64,000 nucleotides of DNA, from contig OX597814.1 of the NCBI GenBank assembly GCA_951406725.2, positions 148,304,001 through 148,368,000 on the forward strand. Reading direction: 5' to 3'. The notes under the pieces are model-generated. The model saw nothing but the letters and a program-made list of their open reading frames with translations, did no database searches and was not told where the DNA came from. Below, one piece after another: positions 4,026 through 48,353 of this stretch (positions within the stretch are counted from its first letter, which is position 1; every line of letters starts with the position of its first letter). Origin of the DNA: Octopus vulgaris (Eukaryota). A program made the position numbers and the translations under genes.

Positions 4026-5057
4026 TATAAACAAATGTGTGTATATATTTGTATATATATATATATGGTTACATATGCATATGCGTATGTTTCCCTTTCT
4101 CTTTCTCTGTCCTCTATTTCCTGTCTTTTTGTCCTATTTTACACACTTCATCGATCTCACACTCTCTAAATCATATCGTTCCTATTTTTCCTGTTTTCAT
4201 AATTTTACTTTCTCATTTTTTCATTGTATATTCATTTTCATTTTTGTATCTCTCTTACCCTTTCCCAAGCTTTGCTTTCATTTCTCTCCTCCTCAATCTA
4301 TATATTCCCTTTTTCGTTCTTTCTTTCACCGCCTCTCTTTATTGTTGCGTTCCGTTTCAGTATTTTAATTACTTATCCTCTTTCCATCTTATTTGCTCCT
4401 TACCCTTAATACTTCAGCCTGTTTTCTTTCTGTCTACTTTTCTTTTAACGTCTTGTTCGTTATTGTCACTAAGTAACTTATTTCAAATTCTATTGCAATT
4501 CTAATTCTCTTTATTCTTCTTGCCTATTTTAGTTCCATTGTTCCTGATCTCTTTTCATTCCAAAAAAATAAGAAGATGGTGAAGGTAATGTATCATAATC
4601 ATACAAGAATGCAAATAAAAACCCAAACTCGTCTTTACGTTGCGTGCAACTGATACATAAATGCGAATAAAATGAGACGATATTCATGTCGACTACAACG
4701 GACTCGGGTGAAATTAAACTGCGCACCGATAACTTGCTTCCTGATAGTTATGTAACATCGAACGATGATCTTGATATCTTTTTGCCGATGTGTTTATAGT
4801 GTTTCTTTCATAAAAAAGAAATGACCTGAATGGCTCGGTGACTGAAGTACCAGGACAAACATCCGTCCTACATCATGGTGAAAAATACTTTCCAATGTGA
4901 ACCCAGTATATTTCCATTGCACACAAGCAGTATACCGAGACGTTGTTTATCTCGCTTCCAGCGGTAGATTTGTAAGGAGGATGTGATTAGTTGCATCTAA
5001 TGCTAATTTCAAACACACCAGCTGATTACAGGCCAACCAATCAATATAATGAACCAC

Positions 5058-5650
5058 GGCAAGCTGGCAGAAACGTTAGCACGCGGGGTGAAATGCTTAG
5101 CGGTATTTCATCCGCCGTTACGTTCTGAGTTCAAATTCTTCCGAGGTCGTCTTTGCCTTTCATCCTTTCGGGGTCGATAAATTAAGGACCAGTTACGCAC
5201 TGGGGCTTATGTAATCGAATTAATCCGTTTGTCTGTCTTTGTCCTCTTTGTGTTTAGCCCTCTTGTGGGTAGTAAAGAAATAGGTATTTCGTCTGCAGCT
5301 ACGTTGTGAGTTAAGTTCCGCCGAGGTCAACTTTGCCTTTCATCATTTCGGTGTTGATTAATTAAGTACCAGTTACGCACTGGGGTCGATATAATCGACT
5401 TAATCCGTTTCTCTGTCCTTGTATATCTCCTCTTTGTGTAGCCCTTTGTGTGCAGTAAAGAAATAGGTATTTCGTCTACCGTTACATTCTGTGTTGAAAT
5501 TCAGACGAGGTCGACTTTGCTTAACATCCTTTCGGGGTCGATTAAAGAAGTGCCAGTTACGCACTGGAGTCGATGTAATCGACGTAATCCCTTTGTATTT
5601 CTTGTCCCCTCTGTTTAGCCCCCTGTGGGCAATAAAGAAATAAAAAGGAG
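5058..5650 (+). mobile_element. Trimeric tRNA-derived Nin/Deu-domain-type SINE with Tx1-like tail
   Basis: Head GGCAAGCTGGCAGAAACGTTAGC, B-box GAGTTCAAATT and core GCCTTTCATCCTTTCGGGGTCGATAAATTAAG. Three ~180-bp units restart at 5283 and 5466. TSD ATATAATGAA(C/T)CAC at 5044-5057 and 5651-5664. Confidence 0.88.
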
Positions 5651-6136
5651 ATATAATGAATCACTGTCTCCTCACTACACGCTAAATTAGTATTTGAATA
5701 ATTTCTGATACCACAGATACCTTCTCCTTTGTAGACCTAATGCTGCTTCTGTTGAAGGAACGAATGACTTGGTTTGGTGTCGAAAAGAAACCTATGTCGA
5801 AAATACAGCAAATTAAAACAAAGCAAAAAAATAAAAATAAAAATAAAGAAAGGATAACTTCGTCATGGAAGGTGTGTTTTTAGATTCGTTAAGTTAATGA
5901 TACTTTGCAGTATAGCCACTGTCACTGCGTTACGGATTGATGTGAAAAAGGGCAATGCTTGAGATTTGGTATATGTTTTATCATTGGCTACGGCGAATAT
6001 AGACTATTAAGGATAAGAGTTTTAAAAAGATGGATTTGGAATTATAGAATTGGCTGCCAAATCGATTCGGTAACGGGACTTTCTAATGAAACCCAGAATA
6101 AACAATATAGTCAAATATGTGTTTGTATATCACTAA

Positions 6137-6464
6137 TTGGTGGTGGTGACCCCCTTCGGTCAGACACTGACCATGGGTTTGCACCTAGAGAGTTACCCTC
6201 TGAGGCACAAGTCTGGGCAAGCTTGTTTTATGGAAGACCAGCAGTCGCCCATGCATACCGGCCTCCCCTTTCCACGTCACCGATGTTGTCCAAGGGAAAG
6301 GCAAGGGCCGATACAGCTTGGCACTTGTGACGTCGCAACTCATTTCTACAGCTGAGTCAACTGGAGCAACGTGAAATAAAGTGTCTTGCTCAGAACACAA
6401 CACGCAGCCCGGTCCAGGATTCGAACTCACAATCTCACGATCGTAAGCTCGACGCTCTAACCAC
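6137..6464 (-). mobile_element. tRNA-derived CORE-type SINE with a probable RTE-related 3' half
   Basis: Minus strand: A-box GTGGTTAGAGC, B-box GTTCGAATCC, CORE-like CTGAGCAAGACACTTTATTTCAC..CCAGTTGACTCAGCTG, then GCGACTGCTGGTCTTCCATAAAAC and an (ACC)n end. A decayed relative lies at about 10610-10830 (+). The RTE relationship is from recollection and unverified. Confidence 0.7.
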
Positions 6465-7467
6465 ATGGTGTCATAATTAATTCGTTCAAAGTGATAGCAA
6501 AAACCGGTATGCGGTTGTCTCTTTAGCGTACACGTCGAGTCGAAAGTTAGTCTGATATGTCACTGTCGACGATACGTTCACTGACAGCCACATGTCAGAA
6601 TCTACAACCCTTCCTCGCTACGGGAGTCATGAAGAGGGCACAAGCGAAATGAAGAAACCCCGATGGAAACAGATGGTTTCGTAGGTAAACGAGCAATGAA
6701 AAATTGGCTGAAATGATTAGCAAAGCAGTTTCTGTTGCAAATCTGAGGCAGCGAATTGTTTTGGCAACTTTATGTGTCAGCACACTGCTGGATGGATAGG
6801 AATAATAACGACTATAATACGAAACACGAATATCATAGAATTTTCTAAAGATGCGGACAACGGGGTTTCAAATGTTAAAGGAGGCTTCTTAAATAGTTAA
6901 AGAGTAGACGATAAAAAGGAAAATTCTAATTAGAAAAATATAAGAGAAATATTTAATTTCATTCAGAAAGTTTTCAAATTCACGTAAATAAAATTTCTAC
7001 ACGAATATTTATTCAAATGAATGCGTGCTAATAGAGTCAATTACTGTTATGTTTATTTGCAAATCTGACTGTGTAGGAATGCCTATGTGTACGATATATA
7101 TATTTTTTTTCTTTTTTCTCTGCCTTTATGTATGCATGTATGCATCAGTCTATCTGTATTTGTGTATGCGTGTATACATAAACATATCTGTCTATGAATA
7201 TAAGTCATCCCCTATCTTTTACTTGTCTCATTCATTACATTGCAGCGAAGCTGGGTCACCGAGTTGACAAATTTAGCCGCTCCTCAGTACATATTTTTCC
7301 CCTAAACGTAATAGTTATTATAGCAATGTGTTTTTGCCGAACTACTATGTTACAGGGACGTAAACACAGGTCGTCGAGGTCTGATGGGGTGGGGGGGGCT
7401 AACACAAATTCAAATGCACGCACACGTTAATATATACATGCACACCCCCACACAAACACCCACACAC

Positions 7468-7542
7468 AGATAGATAGATAGATAGATAGATAGATAAATA
7501 GGTAGGTAGGTAGGTAGGTAGGTAGGTAGGTAGGTAGGTAGG

Positions 7543-7604
<62 letters not shown>

Positions 7605-7605
7605 T
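7468..7605. repeat. (GATA)n/(GGTA)n tetranucleotide microsatellite; similar tracts at 20300-20490, 47458-47672 and 58560-58680
   Basis: Seen directly. Confidence 0.97.
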
Positions 7606-8153
7606 ATATAGGTATACGCGTGGTATTATGTTTCCGTTTGCATTAAGACTTTCCCAGAAGAAAAGTGTATTGAATATGCTTCATACCAGAATATTTTCCC
7701 TTTTATTAAACGGTCTTGAAGGTAGTTTTAATGAGATTTGAATTATTAATTCTGAAACCTTTACCGTAATATCATTTGTACGGTGCACCTGGGCGCTGCA
7801 AGGTCGATGTCACAGTAGCCACTTAGGTGTGTGGTGGAATTGCATATATATTACACACACACATACACACACACACATGTGTAAATATGTTCGTTTAAGC
7901 GGCATACATAAGCATGCACGATGTGTTGTCTCCCTTGTCTGTGTGTGCGTGTAACATGTTTCTTCGAATATATATCAATATTCGGATCTGCATTTCTCTG
8001 CCATATCTCTACAGTAACTGAGTATCTCAATTTCTTCATAGGAATTTTCTGCACACTTGCCACGGAACATAATAATATCTTGTTTTATTATGACATAGGA
8101 ATAATTTTAAATGCAGTTAAAAGTGATTGCCGTCATTATATACATGTGTGTGT

Positions 8154-8858
8154 AAGGCGGCGAGCTGGCAGAAACGTTAGCACGCCGGGAGAAATGCTTA
8201 GCAGTATTTTGTCTGCCGTTACGTTCTCAGTTCAAAATCCGTCGAGGTCGACTTTGCCTTTCATCCTTTCGGGGTCGATAAATTAAGTACCAGTTAAGAA
8301 CTGGGGTCGATTTAATCGATTTAACCCCTTTGTCTATCCTTGTTTGTCCTCTCTGTGTTTAGCCCCTTGTGGATAGTAAAAAATAGGTATTTCCTCTGCC
8401 GCTACGTTCTGAGTTCAAATTCCGCCGAGGTCGAATTGCCTTTTATCCTTTCGGGGTCAATAAATTGAGTACCAGTTACACACTTGGGTCGATGTAATCG
8501 ACTTAATCACTTTGTTCTTGTTTGTCCCCTCTATGTTTAGCAATAAAGAAATAACAAACTTTAGCACGCCGGGGGAAATGTTTAGCGGTATTTCGTCTGC
8601 CGAGGTCGACTTTGCTTTCATCATTCGGGATCGATAAATTAAGTACCAGTTACGCACTGGAGTCGATATAATCGTCTTAATCCGTTTGCCTGTCCTAGTT
8701 TGTCTCCTCTCTGTTTAGCCCTTTGTGTGTAATAAAGAAATAGGTATTTCATCTGTCTTTAAGTACTGAGTTCAAATTCTACAGAGGTTGACTTTGCCTT
8801 TCATTCTTTCAGGGTAGATAAATTAATTACCAATTGCGTACTCTCATCGATCTAATTG
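8154..8858 (+). mobile_element. Four-unit array of the same Nin/Deu-type SINE
   Basis: Units restart after the ...AAATA tail at 8386 (GGTATTTC), 8554 (ACAAACTTTAGCACG, equivalent to AGAAACGTTAGCACG) and 8743 (GGTATTTC). Confidence 0.85.
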
Positions 8859-8879
8859 TGTCTACAGTATATACCTGTG

Positions 8880-8910
<31 letters not shown>

Positions 8911-8914
<4 letters not shown>

Positions 8915-9276
8915 ATAATAAATATTAGGGAATAAATCCAAATTTACAGGGAAAAATCAGATTTAGGATTGAATCCAATTTTATGGTAAAATATAATATA
9001 ATATTAATTAGAGACAAAACCACTATTATGCAAATCAAACAAAGAAAGACTTAATCCAATACATAAAAAATTTTATATAAATTAAATAAAATTAAGTTAT
9101 CCACTACAATTGTTTCCTGTCACTTCTAAGGACATTCATCAGGTGGTTTCAAGACCTTCTATTCAATTTTAAATTATGAATTTGAATAGAAGGTCTTGAA
9201 ACCACCTGATGAATGTCCTTAGAAGTGACAGGAAACAATTGTAGTGGATAACTTAATTTTATTTAATTTATATAAA
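8911..9276. mobile_element. Fold-back (palindromic) PLE pLTR-derived element, family A, in (TA)n
   Basis: Near-perfect inverted arms at ~9072-9166 and ~9182-9276. The left arm continues into a tail to 8911. Homologous to 29121-29560 and 52301-52602. Confidence 0.8.
9202..9247 (+). ncRNA. Type I hammerhead ribozyme (mirror copy on the minus strand at ~9101-9146)
   Basis: CCAC-CTGATGA-ATGTC-cttagaagt-GACAG-GAAAC-AATT-GTA-GTGG. Stem I is CCAC/GTGG, stem II has a terminal A-G mismatch, and the predicted cut is after GUA (9243). Confidence 0.8.
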
Positions 9277-9804
9277 TATATATATATATATATATCTTTC
9301 TATCTATCTATCTATGCACACATAGTAAAACTTCTTAACTCTTTTTTTACTTACAACAAATTTGTTATCAGTATTGTTGTAGCAAGTCCTATTCTCTTTA
9401 GTTCCTTTAATACTTTAATATTTCCACTAAAGGGGATTACTTTTCTTGTGTCTATTAGTTGCATGAATAACATCAGTAAATCAAATATGTTCAAATCTCA
9501 TTATCAAGGTATCGAATCGGTTTCGATGATGTGTATTCGATCTTTTAAAATAGCTGTTCGTTCAAGTAGTTATTCCACTGATACGAGTACCCTTAATATT
9601 TTTCGCAAGACTAGACCTTTCAATTACAGTTACAATCCTTTCGATGTGTTTTCTCACAATTTCTATCACCCCAGTTTTACTCAAAAGGATGGAATCGATC
9701 CGATGTTTAGATAAAACATAATCGTCTTAGATATTTAAGCTGAACAATACCATTGCGAAGCGAACTTCTTGACATTTGGTTCATAATGTGTCCGTCATCA
9801 ACTG

Positions 9805-10423
9805 TATTATTTTGTAATCTAGGCACAAGGCAAGGATTTTCGGGTGGTGATAGGTGCAGGTGATTAGATCGACCTCAGTATGTAACTGGTAATTAATTTA
9901 TCAACTCCGAAAGAATGAAAGGCAAAGTCGACCTCGGCGGATTTTGAACTCATAACATAAAACAGATGAAATACCACTACGCATTTCTCCCGACGTACTA
10001 ACGTTTCTTATTTCTTTATTGCCTACAAGGGGCTAAACACAGAGGGACAAACAAGGACAGACAAAGGGATTAAGTCTATTACATCGAGCCAAGTGCGTAA
10101 CTGGTACTTAATTTATTGACCCCGAAATTATGAAAGGCAAAGTCGATCTCGGCGGAATTTGAATTCAGAACGTAGCGGCAGACGGAATACCTATTTCTTT
10201 ATTACCCACAAGGGGCTAAACACAGACAGGACAAACAAGGACAGACAAACGGATTAAGTCGATTATATGGACCCCAGTGCGTAACTGGTACTTTTTCATT
10301 GACCCAGAAATGATGAAAGGCAAAATCGACCTCGGCGGAATTTGAATTCAGAACGTAGCGGCACACGAAATACTGCTAAGCATTTCGCCAGGCGTGCTAA
10401 CGTTTCTACCAGCTCGCCGCCTT
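9805..10423 (-). mobile_element. Three-unit array of the Nin/Deu-type SINE; the last unit has the alternative GCCTTGTGCC tail
   Basis: Reverse complement of the 5058 and 8154 arrays, with junctions at 10191/10192 and 10008/10009. Confidence 0.85.
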
Positions 10424-10881
10424 CCAAACGTCATTGCATTGTATATTGTACTGCGAGTAAAATAAGATACAGAAAAACAGTGTCGAAGCGCATCAGACCA
10501 ATTAATGCTATTATTTAAAATGCCAAACGTGTTACACAATGTCATGTTGAACCTGTGCTTACATTAGTTATAATAAGGCTACGTATCTCAGTGGAATGTG
10601 GAGTCGCATGACTGACTCAAATGTTAAAATCTTGAACTCATGATCGAAAGAGTGTGGTTCTGTTTCATGAACAGAGCAGCGAGTTGGGTTCTTAATCAAA
10701 GAACCTTCATTTCACGTTGTCCCATTCTATTCAGCTGGTAAAGCTAGCCCCTTCCAGCGGTTGGGGAAGTATATAAGCCAATGAAACGAGGAAACCGGCT
10801 TTATGAGCCTATATGGCTTGGAAAGAAGTTTTATTCTTTTTTTATTTATCTTAGAGGAATATTCAGCCATTTACAATTTAG

Positions 10882-11268
10882 TCTTTTACTCTTTTACTTG
10901 CTTCAGTCATTTGACTACGGCCATGCTGGAGCACCGCCTTTAATCGAGCAACTCGACCCCGGGACTTATTCTTTTGTAAGCCCAGTACTTGTTCTATCGG
11001 TCTCTTTTGCCGAACCGCTAAGTAACGGGGACGTAAACACACCAGCATCGGTTGTCAAGCAATGCTAAGGGGACAAACACAGACACACAAACGCACACAC
11101 GTATATATATACATACATATATATATACGACGGGCTTCTCTTAGTTTCCGTCTACCAAATCCACTCACAAGGCTTTGGTCGGCCCGAGGCTATAGGAGAA
11201 GACACTTGCCCAAGGTGCCACGCAGTGGAACTGAACCTGGAACCATGTGGTTGGTAATCAAGCTACTT
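10882..11268 (-). mobile_element. tRNA-derived SINE (CORE-like body), 3' part; host of the Tx1 insertion
   Basis: The minus strand reads AAGTAGCTTG..CCACATGGTTCCAGGTTCAGTTCCACTGCGTGGCACCTTGGGCAAGTGTCTTCT..., an internal TA/TG tract and a GTAAAAGA-type tail. Same family as 40122-40325 and 45427-45500. Confidence 0.85.
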
Positions 11269-11496
11269 TATTTCATATAATTTGCCATTTAGGCATTTAC
11301 AAAGAGGGGACAAACAAGGACAGACAAATATAAAGGGTGAAGTAGCTTAACACAGTTACAATTTTCGAATGAAATTACGGATAAGATTATAAACAATGAA
11401 TTTTACGAAGGCAATGTTTAAAAATATTAATGATCATGTCGAAGGACGGACACCCAGCCATCCGGGTAGAACCTTTACTTTCTGATCCGGTCACAC

Positions 11497-14400
11497 TTAC
11501 CTGGTGCCAAACATACCCATCTTGTATGCCACAGGCTTCCATCTTTTCACAAACATATCTCGTGACAGACACCTCTTCTCCAGCCTGATTTTGCTACTGA
11601 GGTGGTAACTAAAAAAGTTAATCAACCCCTGGCCGGAGACAAAGGTGCCTGTCACTATACCTTTCGTACGCGTCTTCCATACTGTTTCTTTCAGTATGGC
11701 TACTACACAGAAAAAACAAGCCTTTCTTTCCCTGTTAAGGAAAGGGGGCGGCACAATCTCGATGATAGACTCAGCTGATAGCTGTACTCTTCCCATCACT
11801 GACAACAGTTGTTCAACAAAAGCTATCAGTCCCGATAACTCCGGACACTCCACGAATGCGTGCAAGACGGTCTCCCTATCCTGCTCACATCGCGGGCATG
11901 TCGGCGAGACGGCACTACCGTGCCTTGACAGCTTGTCGCGAACAGGTAAAGCCGCACGGAAACACTGCCAGGCCAGGGATTTCTGGTAATTATCCAGATA
12001 CCCCGGCCCGAACGTCCTCCGGAACAGGTTGACCAACTGATTTTCATCGTAGCCCAAGGTCTCCCCCAAGGCGTCTTCGGACTTAATTTCCACTAACCCG
12101 CTATAGAAATCCGTGGTGGAACTCCTGCTGTCGGCGTTTCCCACCCGAGATAGTAGCTGGAGCGCCTGACGGCACTCCAAATGCCATTCACTCAGTTTAG
12201 GTCTCCGCTTGATCCATGCACCGATGTCCGTTAGGGATGTTAACTGGGGAAGGTAGAACCGGACGCGCGGCGACCACACCTGCTCTCCATCCAGGTAAAG
12301 CCAGAGGTGCCTCAACCTTAACGCGAGTTTTCGCATCCTCAGCCAAGGCATCCCTAGCCCACCCTTTAGCGGTTTCTGGCAGCAGACAGAGCGCTTTACA
12401 AGTGGCTTTCCTCCTTTCCACAAAAATCGGAAAAGGATTCTCTCCAACTTGTTCAGCCACAAATCGGGGCAAGGCACCACGGCCAGGGGTAGGTGATTAC
12501 TGATGCTATAAACATCTGCACCACCTCCGCCTTCCCTAGCTGGGATAACGCCCGCCCAGACCAGGTCTGGGTTAGAGCGGTCACCTTGTTGGCCACCTCA
12601 CTCCAATTTTTCTCAATCTGGAGGTCTGGCCCGAACCAGACTCCGAGCAGCTTAACAGGACCTTCCGTCCAACGCCCTACGACGTTATTGGACGGCATCG
12701 GCTTGCCCCTCCAGGTGCCGAGTTGCAAACCGACCGACTTGTCCTCGTTAACCTTTGCTCCTGCCACCGCCTCGTAGCTTTTGATGGCCTCTTCCACCAC
12801 TGGAAGCTGGCCTTCGTCTGCCACGATGATGGAGGTGTCATCCGCATACGCCGTAGCTCCTCTTCCACACCATAGATCATGCGGCGCGCCCCCTAGTGCC
12901 TCCAACTTCCGCAGCAAAGGCTCAAGAGCCAATACGTATAGGAGCGAGAACAGGGGACACCCTTGACGAACTGAACGCTCGATCCTGAACGGCTTCGAAA
13001 AGGAACCGTTCACCTTGACTACAGACTCGATGTCGCTATACAAAGCAGCGATCCAACCTCGAAAGGTCGGGCCTAGGCCAGCCTCTCCGAGGACCGCCGC
13101 CAGGTACCGATGGTCGACCCTATCAAATGCTTTGGACTGGTCTAAATGTACCAGTGCTCCCCCTGCTCCAGAAAGCTTCCCCACCCTCTCTAAGGAGTAG
13201 CGTATAAGGTGGAGATTGTCGTGGATCGTTCTGCCGGGGATGGCGCACGTTTGCGCTTCCCCGACAAGTTTGTCCACGACCCGCGCCAACCTTTTCGCTA
13301 GCACCTTGGCCAGAATCTTTAACTCTGTGTTTAACAGAGTTATGGGCCTGAAGTTCCCTATCTCGTCCCACTTGTTCGGGTCCTTCCTGATCAACGTCAC
13401 CGCCCCCCGGCTCGCAGACTTGGGAATTCTCCCATTCTGCTGCCAGTTGGCGTAGACGCTAGCCAGCAGGTGCCCGAACAAAGTCTGGCATACTTCTATA
13501 AATTTCATAGGGCAGACCATCGAGACCCGGCGACTTCTCCCCGGGGCACTTGCCCAACACCTCGATTACTTCCTCGGCTGTGATTGGCCCTTCACAGCAC
13601 TCAGCCTCTCGTGTCGAGAGGCGCGGGCCACCAGACAGGAAGTCCCTAAGGGCCTGACCATGATCCAGCGTCCCGCACCTCCCGAACAACTCGGCGAAGT
13701 GCTTGTGAAGTGCCTCACACATCTCGTCCCGGTTCTTGATCGTGCATCCGTTTTCATCAACAAGAGACCCAATTGTGGCATCGTTTCCACGCTGTGTTTC
13801 TATCGTACGGGCCCATCCGGCAACATTAATTCCCTCACGGCCCAATGCTCGTACTTTAGCCCGGACTCTACATCCCTCATGTTTGGTTTTGAGGTAACGG
13901 TCTAATGCCGTTCTCGCCGCTAAAATGTGAGATGCAGAGCCCAACCTCAACGCCTCCTCTAAGTTCTTAACTAGTTGCCCTTCTATTCTAGCCCTATCTA
14001 GTCTTAGTTGTTTACTAAATCTAATGGACTCGAATCGAATGGCTCTTTTGAGGGTGAACCACCACCGGTTATTAACCACGGCTCCGGTTAACGCCCTCTG
14101 CACTAACACCTTAATCCGGCTACGGTATGTCTCGCGTGTCAAAATAGACTTGTTCAGCTTCCAGTAGCCGGTTCCTATCTTAAGTGTGCTATCTATGTCC
14201 AGTCTACACGTGACCATTCTATGGTCAGTATAGGGCACCTGGACGAGCTGTGGACAACTAAAACTAGACTTATCTCTAGTTCTTATCACTATCCTGTCTA
14301 GATAAGACTTGAACCTTCCGTCGCCACTCATCCAGGTCCACTCTGGGACGTTCGGATGGTCAAGTCTGTAACGATCTGCTAGCTGAAACCGCTTAAGCAG

Positions 14401-14852
14401 ATCCACGAGACGTGAGTTCACTTTCCTATAGATCGAGCCAACGCTATCGATGTGTACGTCACGAGAAAGCCCTCTAGGCGCCGATAAAAATCAGTTTGGA
14501 AACCTCTAGCACAAGGTGCATAGAGTCCGATCAACCTGAAGGCCTTACTGCTGTATGTCACATCAAGGACGACCAGCCCACCTTCTGGGTCTACATAGAC
14601 TGTACTTGTCTGTAGAGCCAAGTCTTTACGGATCAGTACCACTACGCCCCCTCGCCCTCCGGTCTGGCCAGGAGACATGATTTTCTCGTAGCCATTCAGG
14701 AGAGACGAGAAGGTTTGTAGGCCGTCCAGCTTGGTCTCTGTAGCAACCATCACATGTATATCATGTGATCTGAGGTCGTCGAGGAAACAAGCCTGCTTCC
14801 ACTTCGAACTCAGACCACGCACATTTAAACAACCAAGGTTAAGCGAAGCCAT
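11497..14852 (-). pseudogene. Tx1 ORF2: AP endonuclease + reverse transcriptase + C-terminal CCHC, 3 frameshifts
   Basis: APE: LNVRGL, ATETKL, LYAP, YLDRI, TDH, GYWKLN. RT: KSPGLDGLP, FRPITLLN, LDQSKAFDRVDH, SVRQGCPL, AYADD. C-terminus: CPRCEQDRETVLHAFVEC. Split into ORFs 14418..14852, 13459..14421, 12453..13520 and 11497..12480. Confidence 0.93.
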
Positions 14853-14869
14853 TACAAAAAGTAAAAGTT

Positions 14870-16294
14870 CTACTTACATTTCGTTGGAGAGGTGGGGGCC
14901 GACCTCACCACACGTTTGTGGGCCCCTTCTTTCTCCTCTTTCTTCAGATAGTCCGGCAAGTTCGCGATATGCCGGATGGCGTTTGGGTGTCTGTCTTTTA
15001 ATTGTTTGAACGTTGTTTCCGCAATCCACGCGTGTCTATTTCGATCTTTGTATTTGTTGTACAGTCTTGCTGACTGATGCTGAACCACAATATCGTTTAT
15101 GTATTAGTCTTGTGTGTCGAATTCAATTAATATGAGTTCATTTTCTTTTTTGTCTTCTTTTTCTGGGCCAGTTGAGCGGGATTTTTTTTCTGTGTCTGTG
15201 GTGCGTCTTTGTTTTTATTATTTTTGTAGGGGATGTGGACGGGGATGCTGCACGAATTCTTTTACGAACTGGTGTAAATCCCCCCTCTGATACCTCCATG
15301 GTATCGTCTGGGGTAGCAATAGTTTGTTCGGTAGGCGCCGCAGGTTTTAGTGGGGTGGGAAGTTTTAATAGTGTAGGGGTTTGTGAGTGCGAGGGCTGGG
15401 TTTTTTCTTCAGTCTGTTTTGGGGTTGGCACCGTAACAGCGGGAGTGGGATTTTTTGTTTTTGTAGGGGTAGGTGTGTTTGCAAGGGTAGGGACTTTTTT
15501 ATTATCTGAGGGGCCTGGTGTCTGCGGTTTCTTTTGCTTGTCTGGACAGTCTACACGAATGTGGCCCTTTTTGCCGCAGGCGTAACAGGTGGGTTTTCGG
15601 CCTTCGACCTGTACCCTGAGGGCTACGTTCTCGCCCACGAGCACCCTCTCAGGAAGGAGCTGCAGGTCCTCCGCTGTTCCTTGAATTAATATATTAATGT
15701 TACGCCCGAGCCAAAATCGAGTGGTAGAGCATGTTACTTGAAGTATTTTTATTTTGTCCGCCCTTTTATATAACAGGGCGGCCACTACCTCTACCGGATC
15801 TACTTCCGGCGGGGCTTCTATAATCCTGACCCGGGACGTCCTGCGTCCCTATAGCTTGGGAAAAGTACCACCTCCTTGGTTTTTAGGGGGTTCACAGAAT
15901 GCCCGCGGGCCATTTCTTCCCCCGAGAAGCGGACATCCACGGTGCCATATGTCCGTCCCCTGGCGACGTACACGATGTCCTTCCAAATCGGGGACAGGCA
16001 TTTCTCGATGGTGCTTTTTTCGAAGTGTTTGAACCTTCTGCTTTGTGGACAGAAAGTTTTAAACACTACGGTCCGCTTCTCGGTCTCCACGATACTGGCG
16101 GAGGGTGATATTTTAACATCACCACCCTCCTCTTGCATTCTTTTAAATAGCTCGACGAGCTGATTGACATCGATGTCAATGTTCTCGGTAGCCACTGCGG
16201 CTACCGCAGAAAATTTTTTAACATTGCTCTCCTCAAGAGCACTACTTTCGTGAATAATTTCAACAGGCATTATTCTGTTGAAATTAGACAACAC
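14870..16294 (-). pseudogene. Tx1 ORF1 (gag-like protein with zinc knuckle), broken into three frames
   Basis: ORFs 15818..16294, 15138..15785 (CYACGKKGHIRVDC = CX2CX4HX4C, then a Pro/Thr-rich linker) and 14870..15088 abut or overlap. The last one stops 17 bp before the ORF2 ATG. Confidence 0.8.
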
Positions 16295-16659
16295 AAAAAT
16301 TACGAATATTGGTTTCCCACAAAACTGGGAAACCTATAGAAAGTTTTTCTTCCAAAGTAGTTAAAAAAAGCAGTTCAAAAATTCCAATTCCCACCCCCAT
16401 TCGGGGGAGGGGCACGAAAATAGTCTGGCAGGACTATATCTAGTCACGTAAATAAAAAGCCACAGTGGCTAACAGTTCAACGGTAAGAAATTATTCAATT
16501 ATTTCCCGGTAAAACCGGAGAACAAGACAGTTCAGCAACATTTAAAGGCAAATTTTCAGTAGCAGGAATTCAACAATTAACAACACAGCAAAACTCTTAC
16601 CGGGAAGAAAACGCGTCCAAACCGTAGTACGGTAAGCAACGTCACTCTTCTGTCAGTGA

Positions 16660-16697
16660 GGTTAGCAAGCTACTTACCACACAGCCACTCCTGCCCC
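16660..16697 (-). mobile_element. 5' head (A-box) of the same SINE, displaced by the Tx1 insertion
   Basis: The minus strand reads GGGGCAGGAGTGGCTGTGTGGTAAGTAGCTTG, matching the intact head at 45427 (GGCGTAGGAGTGGCTGTGTGGTAAGTAGCTTG). Confidence 0.85.
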
Positions 16698-17159
16698 TTT
16701 TTAATACATAAAGCAAACATATATTTTGAACGAATAACAAAGACACATATTCAATGAACGTTGCAGGAGATCCATCATAAATCTAGGCAATTTTCAATTA
16801 ATATTATTATCGGTGTTTTTATATTAATATGAAACAGAGACGTGTGGTAATGATAACAGAAACAGCAGTATAGAAACCTTATCACTATTTCTTTTTTTCT
16901 TCATTTCTTTCCTATTTTGACTATCTTCTAATTCCATATTTCTCTTTATCACTTCTCTGTCTGTTTTCTTTCTCTTTCTCTCTGACCTTTTTGTTATGTT
17001 CTTGGTTTTGTTTGTTCTACGAAAATAGAATTTCGCCGACAATATTTCTCCTGTATTGATAATTATTATAGCATCTATTTATTGAAAAAGAGAGACAGAC
17101 CCGGTGCCTATATTTGAAAAGATTATCCAAAAAAGCAAGGACGTGGCAAGTAGGTAAAC

Positions 17160-18250
17160 TCAGTCGCAAGCTTGACAGAATGCATAACGGCTATTCTACG
17201 AGTTTTAAAAGGTGAGTTCAAGTAGTACCAAAGCCACATTTACTTTTCATTCTTTCAGAGCCGATAAAATAAAGTACCAGTTAAATATTGGGTCGATGTA
17301 ATCAAAGTGCTCCCTATCCTAAAAATCGTTGCCCTTGTGCGAAAATTAGAATTATTAAAGCGAGGAAAGGGAGGGAGATTACTGAAAGGTTACCACGTAT
17401 GACGAAACGCTAAGAGGCATTTGTTACGGCTCTTAACGTTTTGAATTGAAATACTGCCGAGATCAGATACACTTTACATTTTCTCGGGGTCGATGAAAAA
17501 AGATACCTATCAAACAGTAGGGTTGATGTAATCTATTAGACTTCTCCCCGACAAAAGTTAGCCTTGTTCCAAAATTCGGAAAACAGGTGGCGAACTAACA
17601 TAATCGTTAACGCTTCGTATAAATTGTTTAAGACATTTCTTATAGCATTTCGATTATGATTGATTTCATATTATAACGAGGTTAAACGTTCCCTTACATT
17701 CTTTCACATTCAATAGGTTAAAGTACTTATGAAGTATTTGTCTCAATGCAATCAACTGACAATCCTTACCGTAAAATCGATGGACTTGTGCCAAAATTTA
17801 GAACAATTATTTAAAAGAGAGATCGTCTGAAAGTTATAATATAAATAACATAATAAGAATATTATTACTATTTCTAAATTCTGTCGGTACTCAACTTTGC
17901 CTTTCATTTTGCCAAGGTGGATGAAATAAGTACCAGTGGAACACTGGAGTCGATTTAGTCGACTTAGTCCTCTCACCCAAACTTGTTGGCTGTGTACCAA
18001 AGTTTAAAACGAGTTGTATTACTATATTTTAGGCGGCGTGTTGATAGAGTCGATAGCACGCCGGGCAAAATATTTAGCGGCATTTCGTCCATCCCTACGT
18101 TCTGATTTCAGATTCAGCCGGGGTCGACATTGATTTTCATCTTCCCGGTGTTCGATATAATAAGACCTACATAAATGCTGGGGTCGATGTAACCGACTTT
18201 CACTCTCCTTCGAAATTGCTGGCTTTGTGTCAAACTTGAAACCAATAATG
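17160..18250 (+). mobile_element. Cluster of about 5 diverged monomeric Nin/Deu-type SINEs, same orientation
   Basis: Degenerate TTTCAT..GGGGTCGATAAAAT..GTACCAGT..GGGGTCGATGTAATC cores followed by GCCTTGTGCCAAAATT-like tails near 17340, 17570, 17790, 17995 and 18230. Confidence 0.7.
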
Positions 18251-20340
18251 TTGTTATTTCTCTTTTCTGTTTGTTTTTTCAGTCTATCTCTCCACCACTC
18301 TGCTCTTAATAACTTTCTCGCTACTCCCCTGAAGCTTTTATTATTTGACCCATATATTTATATAATTCCACTGCTTAAACTTCACGCTACAATTAACTCT
18401 GCAACTCCTCTGTATATCAAGCACTATTCCTAAGTTTTTATCTTCGTCACATCTTACTATCTTACTTCTATGTAGCTTAAGAGTTCTATTCGGAATCTCA
18501 CAGTCCTTACTTCGAATTTACTCTAAAATAATTTGGGTCAATGTAATTTTAACTATTCTTCCTTTGATCTAAGTATTGTAAATGGAATTTGTTGTGTCTT
18601 GGGGGATGCATTACACTAATAATAATTAGACATTCTCAGTTCAATCCCATTCTTTTTTTTACTATTACCCAATTTGTTAAATAACTAACCAACTAATCGT
18701 TCGTTTCTTTAATGCAGTGATTAAACAATCACACGTTTGTTTGTTAGTCAAATATCTTTCATCGCCATTCTCGGCCTCCTCAGTGACTTACCTTCTCGCT
18801 CACAGAGGCCAGTGAAAGAGTGGATTTTGCTGAATAGTCACTCTTTTCAACATCTCTCATCTAGAATATGATAAACTTTTTTGGTCTCAAATCTCTTGAA
18901 GTCACTCAGACCTTAACTTCAGTCTCAGGATAAGCCATATATTCCTTCACTTAACAATCAGCTCTGGATGTGTTGTAAACACTTCATCGACCTTACAATT
19001 TTTACTCTTATGACATTAAAACATTTCATAAAACTGAATTATCCACGCTATCTATTTGTTCTTTTTTCTATTACACTCCACAAAATGGAAAACCCTTTCA
19101 ATTCATATCACCTGTTACAGCTGTATTGTTTCCAGACAGTTAGTTGAGGCCTATGATGGAGAACCATGTCACGAATTTGTTTGTCATTTCTTGCAGAGTG
19201 GCATCTTTCACAGCATGGTTCCAATTTTAGTATTTATTTATAAAACTCATTCACATTTTATTGTCTCTTGATAAAATTCATTCCTCTATTGTCTCTCCTA
19301 TCAACATTTTCAAATTAATATCTTTCCTATTTTTCAAAAATGCATTATTTTATTTTGTTAATATTTGTTTGCTGCACAAGCATTTGTTGGTTTTATTGTT
19401 GTTTAAATTATCTCACACTACCTCTCTCTTTCTTTATTATTTCCCTCCTTCATTATTTGTGAGTGTGTGAGTATTTCTATATTTGATATTTGTTTTTAAT
19501 TATACTAATGGAACTGTCTGGATATTTTGTTATTTTTACAGTCTATATCTTCATTATCGATCTGGAAACTTTATCATATAACTACTAAATGTTTCGTCAG
19601 CATTTCTGTCTTTTACCAAAATATATTCCCTCTTAGGTCCAAGCTTGCTGACGTGTTTTATATATTTATTTTCCTAGCGTTAAGATTTGAACAAATATTC
19701 TTTAAATAACCAATATAAATGTAAATCATGAAAATGTTTAAGACTCCAAGGAATCAATATACAACCAAACAATTACGACTATTCTTTCTAACACAGTTTC
19801 CATGTTGAGTTACGGTATTGTAGACATTTCCTCTTTGGCACAGTAACACGGAAATGAAAATTGGCTTATTCAAAAGTATACTTTGGCACTTATGCTAAGG
19901 AGTTTTGCGTACCCTTACGGCATAAGCCATGATTAACTCATAGCCTAATAATTCACTACTTCAAATATCACTAAGTTTGTCATGATAATTAATTTCAAGT
20001 TACAATATTATACGTATTAAACATACATAATTCGATGTACGGATGTTTTTAGGATAATAGTTCGAAGTTGATCGGGTAGAGCTTTACGTACAACATATCT
20101 TACGGGATTCTATATAGTTTCTACCGAAGCTAACTCACGCACAAGTCCTGGATCGATCAGAGTCTTTTAGTTCATTTGCTTAAAATACCACGCAGCGAAT
20201 CCGAATGCATGATGCCATGGTCACTAAGAGAAACTGTTAAACATTCCCAGATGCTCGAGTCAACACACACATATGCATGTATATGTATAGGAAGAGTGAT
20301 ATAGATAGGCAGATAGACAGACAGAGAGACAGACAGACAT

Positions 20341-21513: not shown

Positions 21514-22014
21514 AATAGACATGTAAAGGTGTGAGCATAATTGGGTGGAAGCATAAGAGTGAGTTTAATAAGTCCAATTCATATCCATTTAGAGGCTAAT
21601 TCAGTAGTTCTGGGTGAATTTTTGCTCTTGCTTCTTGCATCAGATTATCGGGACGATCAATACATAATGAACGAGATTCGGCATGAGGAAATCGTAGACA
21701 CTCATCATAAGTGCATTGTATATGTGTGTTCTGTGTTTGCGTATCTCTGTGTGTAGGTGTTCAATAATGCCTAGCGGAATATGCGTTCACATGTCGACCT
21801 AATTTTAAGAACTTGCGATAATCAATTATATAAACCTGAGTACATGGTTTCACCTATATTATTGACTTCAAATCTATGTTAAGACCAATTTTACTTCGGC
21901 AAAATGTAAAGATTACGAAGAAATATTGGCAAGCATTTTTTTCAGAGACCTAACGGTTTTGCAATCTCTCCACACTGACAATATTGATAATAGTAATAAT
22001 AATAATAATAATAA

Positions 22015-22400
22015 TAATCGTTTCTACAATAGGCACAAGACTTGAAATTTGGTGGCAGGGGACTAGTCGATTACATCGGCCCTGGTGTTTCACTGGTGCT
22101 TTATTTATCAACCGCGAGAGTATGAAAGGCAAAGACGACCTCGGCTGAATTTTCACTCAGAACGTAAAGACGGACGAAGAACAACATGCCAACGATTCTG
22201 TCAACTCACCGCCTTAACAACAACAATAATAATAATTGTTTCACAGTTTGTCATATGGTCAGCAATGTCTTAGTGGATGAAGTAAATCGATGACATCGTC
22301 TCGTGGACTCAGCTTGTACATATTTTAACTACACCGACATCATAAAAGGCAACATTGATCACGACTCGTACAGATCCTGAAGAAATGCCGTTAAGCCAAC
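22015..22400 (-). mobile_element. Two diverged Nin/Deu-type SINE monomers with (ATT)n tails
   Basis: The first shows GAAAGGCAAAGACGACCTCGGC (reverse complement of the core) and an AGGCACAAG tail. The second copy (22240-22400) is more decayed. Confidence 0.65.
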
Positions 22401-36921: not shown

Positions 36922-37260
36922 AACTAAAAATAAGGGTGTCTGAGAGACACCACCATGCCGAAATAGCAGTCAAATTCCCGACTCTAAAAGCCACCTTGAA
37001 ATGTTCATATCGCACCATGAGATAAGACAGGGAATTATTCAGTAATATTTTTTTTTGCTAGTCTATTTTGTCCCCCTGTCTTATCTCATGGTGCGATATG
37101 AACATTTTAAGATGGCTTTTAGAGTCAGGGATTTGACTGCTATTTCGGCATGGTGGTGTCTCTCAGACACCCTTAATTATTACCTTTGTATGGTATTTAT
37201 TCCCATGCTGGCCACTTGATAATATCGATATCTAAATATCAGTATTATCCTTATTTATAA
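36922..37260. mobile_element. Fold-back element, family B (arms 36930-37032 / 37074-37176 plus a right-hand tail)
   Basis: ~100-bp inverted arms with few mismatches, preceded by (TG)n(TA)n. Shares TTTGACTGCTATTTC and ACCCTTAATTA with 50549-50845. Confidence 0.7.
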
Positions 37261-39963
37261 ATGATAGCTATCACCGAGACTTGGCTGACTCCAGCAGTAA
37301 AGGACTCAGAGATCCACCTGCAGGGCTACGTCCTTTTCAGATGTGACAGAGGAAAAAGGCGAGGTGGAGGTGTTGCTGTGTATGTTAAGTCTGAGCACAA
37401 ACCGTCCTGCGGTATTCTACCCACAAATGCTCAACCTACAACCAAATTCGATGCCGTCTATTGCAAGCTGAGCCTATCTGAGTTTTGCCTGCCCGTGTTG
37501 GCTGTCTACAGGCCGCCTCTAGCCGATCCCCAGGACGATGCTCATCTACTCGAAGCGAAAAGATTCGTTTCAGCTTCGCATGACTGCTTGGTACTAGGCG
37601 ACTTCAACGCTCCCACGATCGATTGGCCCGCATCAATTTGTACAACATCTTCCCGGTTCGGCCAGGCCCTTCTTGGCGTGGCTGAAGATTGTTTTCTATC
37701 GCAACATGTTGAATATCCGACAAGGCATCGGTCTGGGCAGCAGCCATCTATGCTAGATCTGGTATTCTCCCGCTATCCAAGATCAGTGTCAGACGTATCT
37801 GTGTGCGCCCCTCTTGCCAAGAGTGATCATGCGGTCCTGAAGTTCGTCATGCACACAACTTTTTCCACGCCCACGATTACTTCGCTGCCACGTAGAGTCT
37901 TCTCTGCAATTAATCTTGAAATTCTAACCGAGGCGTCCGCGCTTCTGGACTGGCGTTCCCTGATGACGTTGTCCTCAGTTGACGAACTATGGTCATCCCT
38001 CAAAGCATATGTAATCTGTTTGACTGACCAGGCAGTTCCCGTTGGACTTCCCAAGAGGAAGAAACACAAGCCCTGGGTGACGAAGAAGGTTAAACGAGAA
38101 CGTCGACTCAGAGATATTGCTTGGGCTGAATTCAAAAATCTGGATTCGACTGCAGCTTTTGAGGTGTACAAAACTCAACGAGACCGAGCCGTGAAAATTG
38201 AAAAGAAGGAACGCTTCAGTTATGAATACAAAATCGCGGCAAATGCCAGTAGCAATCCAAAAACCTTCTTTGCCCATGTCCAGCGGAATTCCCGCTTGAA
38301 CAACCAGATTGCAACGTTGGTAGACTCAACAGGCGTATCGATTGAGGACCCTTATCAACAGAGTCAATTATTTGCCGAGGCTTTTTCAACTATTTTCAAA
38401 CAAGATGATGGTCGTGAACCCCCTCCATTTGATAGATCGGTACCTCCAATGCTTCGATTGATCATCACGCGGGACCAAGTCAAACGTGTTATTCAAGGCC
38501 TCGATGTCAACAAGGGTCACGGCCCTGACGGCATACACCCACGGGTTATCAAAGCGTTGGCTCCGGTCATTTGCGAGCCCTTAACACGACTATTCAATAT
38601 GTCATTGGCGACGGGTGTTATACCTGCAGACTGGAGAACAGCGATAATCTGCCCAATTTTCAAGAAAGGGAGCCGCGAAGACCCGCTTAACTACCGACCG
38701 GTTTCCCTTACATCAATAATCAGCAAGATGTTCGAAACCATCCTTAAGAAAAGTATGATGCTCCACCTCCTAAACACAGCCTCGATCACTGATTCCCAAC
38801 ACGGCTTCGTGCCGAAGAGATCATGCTTGACCAACTTACTAGTAATGGAAGAATTGGTGACGCGCATCCTCGATGATAGTGATGCTGTTGACATCGTTTT
38901 ATTGGACTTTGCCAAAGCTTTTGACTCGGTAAACCACCGCCTACTACTTGTCAAGCTTCAAGCATATAGTTTCCATCCGGATATTGTACGATGGGTTGGT
39001 GCCTTCCTCTCAGATCGCTCCTTCCAAGTTCAAGTAAATGGTTCGCGGTCCGACGTCTCCAGTGCGAGCAGTGGCGTGCCTCAAGGTTCAGTGCTTGGGC
39101 CCTTGTTGTTCTTAGTCTTCATAAATGACTTGCCCGACGACCTCACGCAACACACCCTTCTATTTGCCGACGATATCAAACTGGTCGCTCCTCGCGGTAG
39201 TATAGAGGATCTTCGTCGATGCCTCCACCAAATTTGGAAGTGGTCTAACGATTGGGACCTGTGTCTGAACGTGTCAAAGTGCTGTCATCTGCCTGTCGGC
39301 TCTACTCCTGCAACTCAACTTGATTTCGAGCCGGGTCGTCTGCTGCTGGAGAGGACCGATCAGGTAAAGGACCTGGGTATCTTGGTGGATTCCTCCTTTT
39401 CGCCTTCGGCCCAGTGCGTCCATGCTGCCAACAAAGCGCGCGGAATTCTGTTTTTGATTCGACGGTCATTCGGAATGCTCACAGCAGCCATATTCCTGCC
39501 ACTCTATGTCACGCTGGTGAGACCCATATTGGAGTATGGGATTCAAGCCTCTTCTCCTTATCTCCTCAAAGACATACAGCACCTCGAAAGAGTCCAGAGG
39601 CTGGCTACCCGCATGGTTCATGGTCTCAAAAATTTGTCCTACGAAGAAAGGCTGAGGACGCTCGACCTTTGTTCTCTTGAAAAACGCCGCCGCCGTGGTG
39701 ATCTCATTCTCGCCCACAACATCATAAGCGGGAAGTGTAACCTCTCGAAAGAGCTGTTCTTCACTCCTGCTCCGGAGCGTCGGCTGCGGGGTCATTCCGA
39801 AAAGCTCTACCTGCGACGATTTCATCTCAATCGAAGGAGAGGAGCTTTCTCCGTCCGGGTTGCGGATCCGTGGAACAAGCTGCCAGACGAGATGGTGAAG
39901 ATGCCGACGACCGCTTTGTTCAAAGCCTCCCTGGACCTCAAGTGGCCTGAACTCTTTACATGA
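37261..39963 (+). CDS. LINE ORF2 polyprotein: AP endonuclease + reverse transcriptase (start of the EN domain missing)
   Basis: APE motifs AITETW, GGGVAVYVK, VYRPP, LGDFN, LDLVF, SDH. RT motifs GPDGIHPRV, NYRPVSLTS, QHGF, LDFAKAFDSVNH, GVPQGSVLGPLLF, LFADD, DLG. C-terminal LERVQRLATR..SYEERL..RRRRGDLI..RGH typical of the CR1 group. No stops. Confidence 0.93.
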   Translation: MIAITETWLTPAVKDSEIHLQGYVLFRCDRGKRRGGGVAVYVKSEHKPSCGILPTNAQPTTKFDAVYCKLSLSEFCLPVLAVYRPPLADPQDDAHLLEAKRFVSASHDCLVLGDFNAPTIDWPASICTTSSRFGQALLGVAEDCFLSQHVEYPTRHRSGQQPSMLDLVFSRYPRSVSDVSVCAPLAKSDHAVLKFVMHTTFSTPTITSLPRRVFSAINLEILTEASALLDWRSLMTLSSVDELWSSLKAYVICLTDQAVPVGLPKRKKHKPWVTKKVKRERRLRDIAWAEFKNLDSTAAFEVYKTQRDRAVKIEKKERFSYEYKIAANASSNPKTFFAHVQRNSRLNNQIATLVDSTGVSIEDPYQQSQLFAEAFSTIFKQDDGREPPPFDRSVPPMLRLIITRDQVKRVIQGLDVNKGHGPDGIHPRVIKALAPVICEPLTRLFNMSLATGVIPADWRTAIICPIFKKGSREDPLNYRPVSLTSIISKMFETILKKSMMLHLLNTASITDSQHGFVPKRSCLTNLLVMEELVTRILDDSDAVDIVLLDFAKAFDSVNHRLLLVKLQAYSFHPDIVRWVGAFLSDRSFQVQVNGSRSDVSSASSGVPQGSVLGPLLFLVFINDLPDDLTQHTLLFADDIKLVAPRGSIEDLRRCLHQIWKWSNDWDLCLNVSKCCHLPVGSTPATQLDFEPGRLLLERTDQVKDLGILVDSSFSPSAQCVHAANKARGILFLIRRSFGMLTAAIFLPLYVTLVRPILEYGIQASSPYLLKDIQHLERVQRLATRMVHGLKNLSYEERLRTLDLCSLEKRRRRGDLILAHNIISGKCNLSKELFFTPAPERRLRGHSEKLYLRRFHLNRRRGAFSVRVADPWNKLPDEMVKMPTTALFKASLDLKWPELFT

Positions 39964-40048
39964 ACACCACCCTGTACTTAACTCCATGTCCCCCTACATG
40001 GCCTTGCTATTTGCTTTTGAGCCAAATTAACTAACTAACTAACTAACT

Positions 40049-40050
<2 letters not shown>
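37261..40050 (+). mobile_element. CR1-group LINE, 5'-truncated, short 3'UTR, (CTAA)n tail
   Basis: 900-aa ORF, ~65-bp 3'UTR, TTAACTAACTAACTAACTAACTAA tail (40028-40050), sharp GC rise relative to the flanks. Confidence 0.93.
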
Positions 40051-40112
<62 letters not shown>

Positions 40113-40121: not shown

Positions 40122-40325
40122 AGGCGTAGGATTGGCAAGTAGCTTGCTTACCAACCACATGGTTCCGGGTTCGTCCCACTGCGTGCCACTTTGAGCAAGT
40201 GTCTTCTATAATAGCCTCCGGCCGACCAAAGCCTTGTGAGCGGATTTGGTAGATGGAAACTGAAAAGAAGTTCGTCGTATATATGTATATATATATATAT
40301 ATACATATATACGATGGGCTTCTAT
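40122..40325 (+). mobile_element. Partial copy of the CORE-like SINE family targeted by the Tx1
   Basis: AAGTAGCTTGCTTACCAACCACATGGTTCCGGGTTC..GAGCAAGTGTCTTCTA..GGCCGACCAAAGCCTTGTGAG. Other partial or decayed copies at 45427-45500, ~27780-28145, ~47730-47880, ~20110-20240 and ~59800-59965. Confidence 0.8.

Positions 40326-45295: not shown

Positions 45296-46165
<870 letters not shown>

Positions 46166-48285: not shown

Positions 48286-48353
<68 letters not shown>

What the first reader, a model, noticed from the sequence alone, without database searches (positions are those of the whole stretch)
11269..11330. Tx1 LINE 3' end shares sequence and terminal hairpin with the multimeric Nin/Deu SINE: a candidate LINE/SINE partnership
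Seen: the LINE's last 60 nt (minus strand) read TTTGTCTGTCCTTGTTTGTCCCCTCT-TTGTAAA-TGCC-TAAAT-GGCA-AATTATATGAAATA. The composite SINE tail (8330-8385, 10009-10065 and 10192-10249 as reverse complements, 5595-5642) reads TTTGTCTGTCCTTGTTTGTCCCCTCT-GTGTTTA-GCCC-CTTGT-GGGC-AATAAAGAAATA. They share a ~25-nt pyrimidine tract, a 4-bp hairpin with a 5-nt loop and a GAAATA end without poly(A). Established: shared 3' tails mark SINE-LINE pairs in stringent clades such as CR1, L2 and RTE, whereas mammalian L1 recognises poly(A). Inference: this SINE subfamily swapped its older GCCTTGTGCC tail (still seen at ~9810-9840 and 17160-18250) for the tail of this Tx1 family, which would then be a stringent L1/Tx1-clade driver.
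Basis: partly seen in the sequence, partly recalled or inferred. Interest (0 to 1): 0.8.

Follow-up and report, generated by a model that had tools for sequence, protein, structure and literature searches.

The report
Octopus SINE borrows Tx1 retrotransposon tail
In what is likely an octopus genome, an abundant short repeat (SINE) shares its 3' end with a family of Tx1 retrotransposons, and an older member of that family likely copied it around the genome by recognising this folded RNA tail rather than a poly(A) tail, which would be a rare tail-sharing partnership in the animal L1 group.

Summary
A full-length, broken Tx1-type LINE (11269-16659, minus) sits in another SINE's tRNA-like head between 16-nt target-site duplications, so its tail belongs to the element. 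Its last 60 nt match the tail of eight multimeric SINE units: 26 of 26 nt in the tract (column majority), then a two-part hairpin whose sequence differs but keeps pairing through three double-sided changes. Public contigs join ORF2/3'UTR to the tract in four runs, and a 10%-diverged copy carries the whole tail, so this is no one-off chimera.

The interpretation needs two corrections. This young subfamily (about 1-2% from other runs) has loop UAAAU or UUUAU, while the SINE (6-14% diverged) has CUUGU, so the driver was likely an older or sister member. The sister Tx1 lineage in another animal ends in a pyrimidine tract, a CUNGU-loop hairpin and AATAAA, which resembles the SINE's OLD tail (modest scores), so the swap may have stayed within Tx1. 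Mobilisation is untested. I found no Tx1 tail-sharing pair in the papers searched; Repbase and Dfam were not searchable.

The parts
11269..16659 (-). Full-length Tx1-type non-LTR retrotransposon, 5391 bp, broken copy
   Evidence: TSD on both sides; ORFs and domains; tree
16660..16675 (-). 5' copy of the 16-nt target-site duplication (10 nt exact, 14 of 16 overall)
11253..11268 (-). 3' copy of the target-site duplication
   Evidence: empty-site heads are seen as loose ends at 11268
16676..16697 (-). 5' part of the tRNA-like head of the host SINE (a different SINE family; 'OK-type' is a recalled name)
   Evidence: matches intact heads at 40122-40270 and 45425-45498
10882..11252 (-). Remainder of the host SINE (rest of head, microsatellite, body, TAAAAGA-type end)
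15138..16270 (-). ORF1 with CCHC zinc knuckle, one frameshift near 15850
   Evidence: PF00098 E 1.2e-5; homologous to ORF1 of relatives
11497..14852 (-). ORF2: APE endonuclease, RT, zf-RVT; breaks near 14420 (with about 30 codons missing), 13490 and 12488
11303..11328 (-). 26-nt T/C-rich tract shared with the new SINE tail
   Evidence: joined to the 3'UTR in contigs of four runs
11269..11302 (-). Terminal hairpin: 4-bp stem with 5-nt loop (11295-11283), 3' AA bulge, lower A/U stem, GAAATA end; common variants at 11278, 11289, 11290
5056..5642 (+). SINE trimer, three new-tail units; units 2 and 3 start at head position about 47
8156..8858 (+). SINE array: dimer, then a second dimer starting at head position about 14 (last unit 3'-truncated); three new tails
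9806..10421 (-). SINE array: new-tail dimer (10421-10009) followed by an old-tail unit starting at head position about 14
17145..18255 (+). Chain of old-tail SINE units (C-tract, AAAA, GGC-CTTGT-GCC-like motif, ATT-rich end)
21821..22396 (-). Old-tail SINE units joined through (ATT)n runs

Best explanation
The SINE's new 3' tail and this Tx1 family's 3' end are homologous, and the SINE likely took the tail from an older or sister member of the family, whose ORF2 protein likely recognised the tract plus bulged stem-loop and copied SINE RNA into the genome. Shown: shared end; tail inside a 16-nt TSD; tail on other copies; double-sided changes in the stems; a sister lineage with a conserved structured end and no poly(A). 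Inferred: direction LINE to SINE; capture by template switch; ORF2p binding of the stem-loop as in L2 elements; target-primed reverse transcription primed on a short A-rich match at the nick. The copy in the window belongs to a younger subfamily whose loop has drifted from the SINE's CUUGU.
For: Tract 26 of 26 against the SINE column majority and both ends stop at GAAATA. 3 of 8 stem pairs change on both sides between LINE and SINE; 89% of cells pair, against 30-51% when slid. Contigs in 4 of 4 laid runs join the 3'UTR to the tract with 0, 0, 0 and 4 differences, and a copy with 19 substitutions and 5 gaps in 211 nt runs to 11268 (table 8). The letter variants listed in the tail (11278, 11289, 11290, 11302) spare the 4-bp stem (table 3, which omits 24 rows). 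The sister lineage (SH-aLRT 99) ends in C-tract, AGGC-CUNGU-GCCU, a covarying terminal hairpin and AATAAA (95.5% of cells paired; folds). Both SINE tail types carry a CUUGU loop. Contigs 8-14% diverged over the ORF2 end exist, overlapping the SINE's 6-14%. Precedent for stem-loop recognition: PMC4176376.
Against: The loop, the specificity determinant in L2 elements (PMC4176376), differs: UAAAU or UUUAU against CUUGU. All three double-sided changes are one comparison (one LINE row), and the structure was drawn after seeing the sequences. The hairpin alone folds only modestly (z about -2 for the LINE; it is the minimum-energy fold in 3 of 7 SINE tails). No clean TSD was found for any of the three SINE arrays. 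SINE depth over the tract is roughly 2000-4000 times the LINE's 3'UTR depth (not a copy number), so the driver would have left few copies. No octopus Tx1 with a CUUGU-loop tail was seen. No genome was available.
Confidence: 0.62

Rival explanations
1. Reverse direction: a Tx1 ancestor captured the 3' end of the abundant SINE (template switch or 3' read-through into a SINE), kept it as its own end and then remodelled it. The SINE's driver is another element.
For: The SINE is far more abundant. The family inserts into SINE heads at least once. The SINE tail keeps the CUUGU loop and the TCT/AGA outer stem better than this LINE does.
Against: Similarity stops exactly at the tract with no SINE body upstream. 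Sister Tx1 elements in another animal already end in a tract, hairpin and AATAAA, so this kind of end predates the octopus SINE.
Confidence: 0.14
2. Only the tract was exchanged, by conversion or recombination between SINE and LINE. The hairpins are convergent and the SINE is driven by an unseen non-Tx1 LINE.
For: The tract is identical while the hairpin differs at many positions. The after-tract alignment is only weakly significant. Old-tail SINEs end in (ATT)n, unlike these Tx1 elements.
Against: Same register, same stem and loop lengths, same bulge and same GAAATA end. The CR1-like LINE in the window has an unrelated (TAAC)n end that neither tail profile hits.
Confidence: 0.11
3. This very subfamily is the direct driver, and its ORF2p tolerates loop differences.
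For: Identical tract. Two loop variants coexist among LINE contigs, so the loop may be loosely read.
Against: The window copy is identical to deep contigs over 270-291 nt and shares 55-74% of its 31-mers with 20 runs, about 1-2% difference. All 8 SINE units are 6-14% diverged.
Confidence: 0.1
4. One-off chimera or a chance match of low-complexity sequence.
For: The tract is T/G/C-rich, and the host SINE has a weak look-alike at 11091-11068 (E 1.1).
Against: 0 of 100 window shuffles match. An independent diverged copy has the whole tail.
Confidence: 0.03

Closest known systems
Stringent SINE/LINE pairs of the L2, CR1 and RTE clades (eel UnaSINE/UnaL2; zebrafish ZfL2; PMC3747384 Table 1, PMC4176376)
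   Same: Shared 3' terminal sequence with a bulged stem-loop and no poly(A).
   Different: The LINE is Tx1/L1-group. Stem and loop letters differ between the partners. There is no terminal short tandem repeat.
L1-clade pairs ZmSINE2/ZmSINE3 with LINE1-1_ZM (maize) and SINEX-3_CR with L1-1_CR (Chlamydomonas); PMC3747384
   Same: L1-group LINE with a conserved hairpin and compensatory changes shared with a tRNA-headed SINE.
   Different: Those are plant and algal L1s. That table lists no Tx1 pair and no animal L1-group pair.
Crocodilian SINEU and Tx1-Mar (PMC4494074)
   Same: Tx1 inferred as a SINE driver; insertion into other repeats; tandem SINE copies from sequential insertion; 16-nt TSD for SINEU-3.
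   Different: SINEU ends in poly(A), and no LINE sharing the SINEU-1 3' end was found. That link rests on target preference, whereas here it rests on a shared structured tail.
Keno (U2 snRNA-targeting Tx1 family; PMC4640811, PMC4494074)
   Same: APE-RT Tx1 elements. Loci L001, L002 and L145 (38-47% RT identity) are flanked by U2 pieces.
   Different: This element sits in a SINE head, not in U2, and strict target specificity is not shown.

Membership tests
Tx1 clade | ORF2 with apurinic-type endonuclease, RT and C-terminal zinc finger | tested here: met
   PF03372 (E 3e-4, below the curated cut-off, on a fragment), PF00078, PF13966
Tx1 clade | ORF1 with CCHC zinc knuckle | tested here: met
   PF00098 E 1.2e-5; same in the relatives L096 and, below cut-off, L142
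Tx1 clade | RT groups with known Tx1 families rather than with L1 | tested here: inconclusive
   Falls among U2-flanked Keno-like elements (quick tree, support 81 for that set). Human L1 ORF2p scores lower (E 1e-25, another tool). No named Tx1L or vertebrate L1 row was in the tree.
Tx1 clade | Target-site duplication | tested here: met
   16 nt, 14 of 16 identical
Tx1 clade | Target-site preference (common, not universal) | tested here: inconclusive
   One insertion in a SINE head. Contig X12:15 spans the same junction (may be the same locus). X14:18 does not continue into that head.
Stringent SINE/LINE pair | Shared 3'-terminal sequence | tested here: met
Stringent SINE/LINE pair | Tail is a family feature of the LINE | tested here: met
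   table 8
Stringent SINE/LINE pair | Conserved stem-loop with compensatory changes | tested here: met
   3 of 8 pairs, from one LINE row; sister lineage 2 of 9 pairs in 9 cells
Stringent SINE/LINE pair | Same loop sequence in SINE and partner | tested here: not met
   UAAAU or UUUAU against CUUGU. This is why the copy's own subfamily is not filed as the direct partner.
Stringent SINE/LINE pair | Overlapping period of activity | tested here: inconclusive
   SINE 6-14% (8 copies); this subfamily about 1-2%; older contigs 8-14%
Stringent SINE/LINE pair | Same TSD length and target signature | tested here: inconclusive
   No clean TSD at the 3 arrays. The LINE and 2 SINE junctions follow TGGY and begin with A; n=3, noticed after the fact.
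Stringent SINE/LINE pair | Tail-dependent trans-mobilisation | not testable with these tools
   needs a cell assay
Nin/Deu SINE superfamily | Nin/Deu central domain | not tested
No reference consensus could be obtained. Motif look-ups in the readable supplements of PMC4824008 and PMC4758252 found no match to this SINE (file 1 of each could not be searched).
Nin/Deu SINE superfamily | tRNA-derived head with A and B boxes | tested here: inconclusive
   Box-like motifs are seen by eye. Rfam gave no tRNA hit in 4900-19000.

The most novel reading that the evidence does not exclude
This octopus SINE has ridden one Tx1 lineage through two successive tails, both showing an ancient CUNGU pentaloop that Tx1 ORF2p reads. 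Young Tx1 subfamilies recoded the loop and flipped the stem pairs to shed the parasite. The endonuclease's taste for TGGY/A sites in tRNA-like heads is what builds the SINE multimers.
Probability: 0.2. Interest if true: 0.82.

Novelty: new variant of a known kind. Interest (0 to 1): 0.6.

Why it matters
SINEs make up about 11.6% of the Octopus vulgaris genome (PMC13282606), and none of the octopus papers I read names their drivers. In a list of 58 tail-sharing SINE/LINE pairs, 3 were L1-clade and none was animal or Tx1 (PMC3747384). A structured, poly(A)-free shared tail in an animal Tx1 lineage would support the idea that L1-group ancestors read their tails stringently and that mammalian L1 relaxed later. 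It also offers natural loop and stem variants for testing how an L1-type ORF2p selects RNA.

Tried and rejected
No whole genome is held, so no genome-wide consensus, age profile or TSD census was possible. The exact tract was absent from the metagenome, prokaryote-genome and viral collections. No RT relatives were found in viral contigs. Four look-ups of earlier findings returned nothing. No RNA holder was listed, which says nothing about expression. tRNA or Rfam targets around the array-forming relatives: none in the 25 loci scanned by ARAGORN, in 10 of 13 loci or in 6 stretches scanned by Rfam. A TSD model for the spacers in those arrays was rejected because the first units lack the spacer on their 5' side. 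The CR1-like LINE at 37261-40050 was rejected as partner of either tail. The LINE 3'UTR as a decayed SINE body was rejected. Contig X14:17 (11156-11283) could be a second insertion into the same SINE-head site, but it has only 15 letters on the tail side, below the tool's bridging rule, so it was not used. The Atlas search gave only generic RT clusters. A motif search of papers gave only unrelated papers in the 20 of 89 listed. The old-tail link is not clean: the same profile scored 14.0 bits inside the RT of L018 among 523 kb of distant loci, above the best true-tail score of 13.3.

Full report
Setting. No genome is held for the window. The nearest named RT homologue is from Argonauta hians (63%), and the SINE types look like octopus SINEs (recalled), so an octopus genome is inferred, not shown. 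Twenty public runs from 8 studies and 3 organism labels hold 55-74% of the 31-mers of 11269-14800.

Observation. The quoted LINE end is exact. Eight SINE units carry the new tail, all in three arrays. The 26-nt tract equals their column majority at every position, and 0 of 100 window shuffles give comparable matches. A profile of the 8 tails hits the LINE end at E 2.5e-5 and nothing else new below E 1. After the tract the letters diverge: 12-24 of 2000 shuffles score as well for four tails and 196 for a fifth; 5 of 8 tails were tested. Similarity does not extend upstream of the tract (324 of 1000).

The LINE. It spans 16659-11269 (minus), with ORF1 (zinc knuckle) and ORF2 (APE, RT, zf-RVT), broken once and three times respectively. 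It splits the tRNA-like head of a different SINE family and is bounded by a 16-nt duplication (16675-16660 and 11268-11253). The tail therefore arrived with the element, which ends at GAAATA with no poly(A).

Family-level tail. I laid four runs (four studies) on 11130-11730. Contigs X1:5, X4:30 and X14:19 join the 3'UTR to the tract with no difference over 175, 291 and 270 nt, the last two from within ORF2. X12:15 spans the whole junction with 4 differences. These could include this same locus in other animals or the source sample. X14:18 cannot: it has 19 substitutions and 5 gaps over 11268-11475, and the rest of its 660 nt is unlike the stretch. Common variants fall at 11289-11290 (loop) and 11278 (lower stem); none of the rows shown falls in the 4-bp stem (24 rows not shown). 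Depth over the tract is about 2000-4000 times that over the UTR, which reflects the SINE; the tool warns that depth is no copy number.

Structure. On the alignment of the LINE tail and 7 of the 8 SINE tails (one with a deleted hairpin left out), a 4-bp stem, 5-nt loop, 3' AA bulge and 4-bp lower stem pair in 89% of cells, against 30-51% when slid, with 3 of 8 pairs changed on both sides. All three come from the single LINE row, and I drew the structure after seeing the data. The LINE tail folds this way at -6.8 kcal/mol (z -2.0); the SINE copies have decayed, and 3 of 7 keep the hairpin as their best fold.

Relatives. A scan of prokaryote genomes returned host-derived contigs, inside a MAG labelled Arenicella, with intact two-ORF relatives at 50-51% RT identity in head-to-tail arrays. 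In a quick tree of 54 rows they belong to the sister group (SH-aLRT 99) of the window element, P0001 and the Argonauta protein (the careful search did not finish). Their ends read C-tract, AAAA, AGGC-CUNGU-GCCU, a variable terminal hairpin, AATAAA, with no poly(A). The terminal hairpin pairs in 95.5% of cells across 13 variants, with double-sided changes at 2 of 9 pairs. More distant relatives L001, L002 and L145 are flanked by U2 snRNA pieces like Keno, which supports Tx1 placement, though no named Tx1 or L1 was in the tree.

The old tail. A profile of 9 relative tails ranks two old-tail SINEs first in the window (E 0.022 and 0.44). A profile of 8 old SINE tails puts its top 7 hits, and 13 of 19, on Tx1 3' ends in 9 loci (best 13.3 bits); 0 of 40 local shuffles reached 11 bits. 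Against this: the loci are related, the region was chosen after I saw the likeness, a 14-bit chance hit occurred in 523 kb of other loci, covariation in the small hairpin is weak, and old-tail SINEs end in (ATT)n. I put the old-tail link at about 0.5. The old motif and the new hairpin share the loop CUUGU in different stems.

Timing. The SINE units are 6.0-14.1% from their majority, crudely 17-39 million years at the rate used in PMC13282606. The window LINE is about 1-2% from other runs (my inference). Contigs 8-14% diverged over the ORF2 end exist (cut-off 15%). With the loop mismatch, this points to an older or sister subfamily as driver.

Multimers. Of 8 new tails, 5 join the next unit at head position about 47, 2 at position about 14, and 1 joins unique DNA. 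The two position-14 cases have different downstream partners (one new-tail, one old-tail), which suggests two insertions at one site. Both, like the LINE's own site, follow TGGY and begin with A. With n=3 this is a lead. Sequential insertion giving tandem SINEs is described for SINEU-3 (PMC4494074).

Mechanism. Shown: homologous, structured, family-level tail inside a TSD. Inferred from L2 work (PMC4176376) and general TPRT knowledge: ORF2p binds the stem-loop of Pol III SINE RNA, nicks the target and primes on a short A-rich match. Inferred: capture of the tail by template switch, LINE to SINE.

Literature. Six searches were run; none listed a SINE sharing a Tx1 tail or a partner for octopus SINEs. 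What I saw: PMC13282606, parts 1-2 of 3 and the supplement list (supplement not read); PMC4494074, parts 2-4 of 5; PMC3747384, passages and part 1 of the tables section; PMC4176376, abstract and Discussion; passages only of PMC4758252, PMC4824008, PMC5786205, PMC3531059, PMC8967140, PMC10294476, PMC4640811 and PMC12988792; motif look-ups in supplements of two of these (file 1 of each not searchable). Ohshima and Okada 1994, Piskurek and Jackson 2011 and Kojima and Fujiwara 2004 were seen only as citations. Repbase, Dfam and subscription journals were not searchable, so a prior database note cannot be excluded.

Verdict. A real feature; a likely SINE-Tx1 partnership at lineage level (0.62); a new variant of a known kind; interest 0.6.

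Noticed in passing
L081-L142 (G001 contigs C3-C19): Intact Tx1-type elements in long head-to-tail arrays (period about 6.4-6.9 kb, up to 13 tails on one contig), several subfamilies, with a variable spacer of about 15-20 nt after AATAAA and no RNA-gene target found. They are host DNA inside a bacterial MAG.
   Followed up: partly
L147:17520-18092: A 286-bp tandem duplicate ending in the same GGC-CTTGT-GCC motif, a different terminal hairpin and TAAATA; possibly a further family or a non-autonomous element of that host.
   Followed up: no
L145:270-10315: Keno-like element ending at a U2 snRNA piece within a repeat that also holds U1 and 5S rRNA genes.
   Followed up: no
window 37261-40051 (+): CR1/L2-like LINE with an open 900-codon APE-RT frame and a (TAAC)n end, 5'-truncated; its tail is unrelated to both SINE tails.
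   Followed up: partly
window 48210-49439 (+): Penelope-like fragment with a GIY-YIG domain.
   Followed up: no
window 9100-9275: Long near-perfect inverted repeat (hairpin of about 110 nt or more); it gives spurious miRNA-family hits below the gathering score.
   Followed up: no
window 36930-37175: Imperfect inverted repeat (MITE-like) just upstream of the CR1-like LINE.
   Followed up: no
window 5043-5055 and 5651-5662: A 12-nt near-match flanks the SINE trimer but is offset by 8 nt at the 3' side; a possible atypical TSD.
   Followed up: no
window 11295 (run X4 loose ends): Nine contigs carry the terminal hairpin with a different upstream sequence; possibly another subfamily with this hairpin but not the tract.
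   Followed up: no
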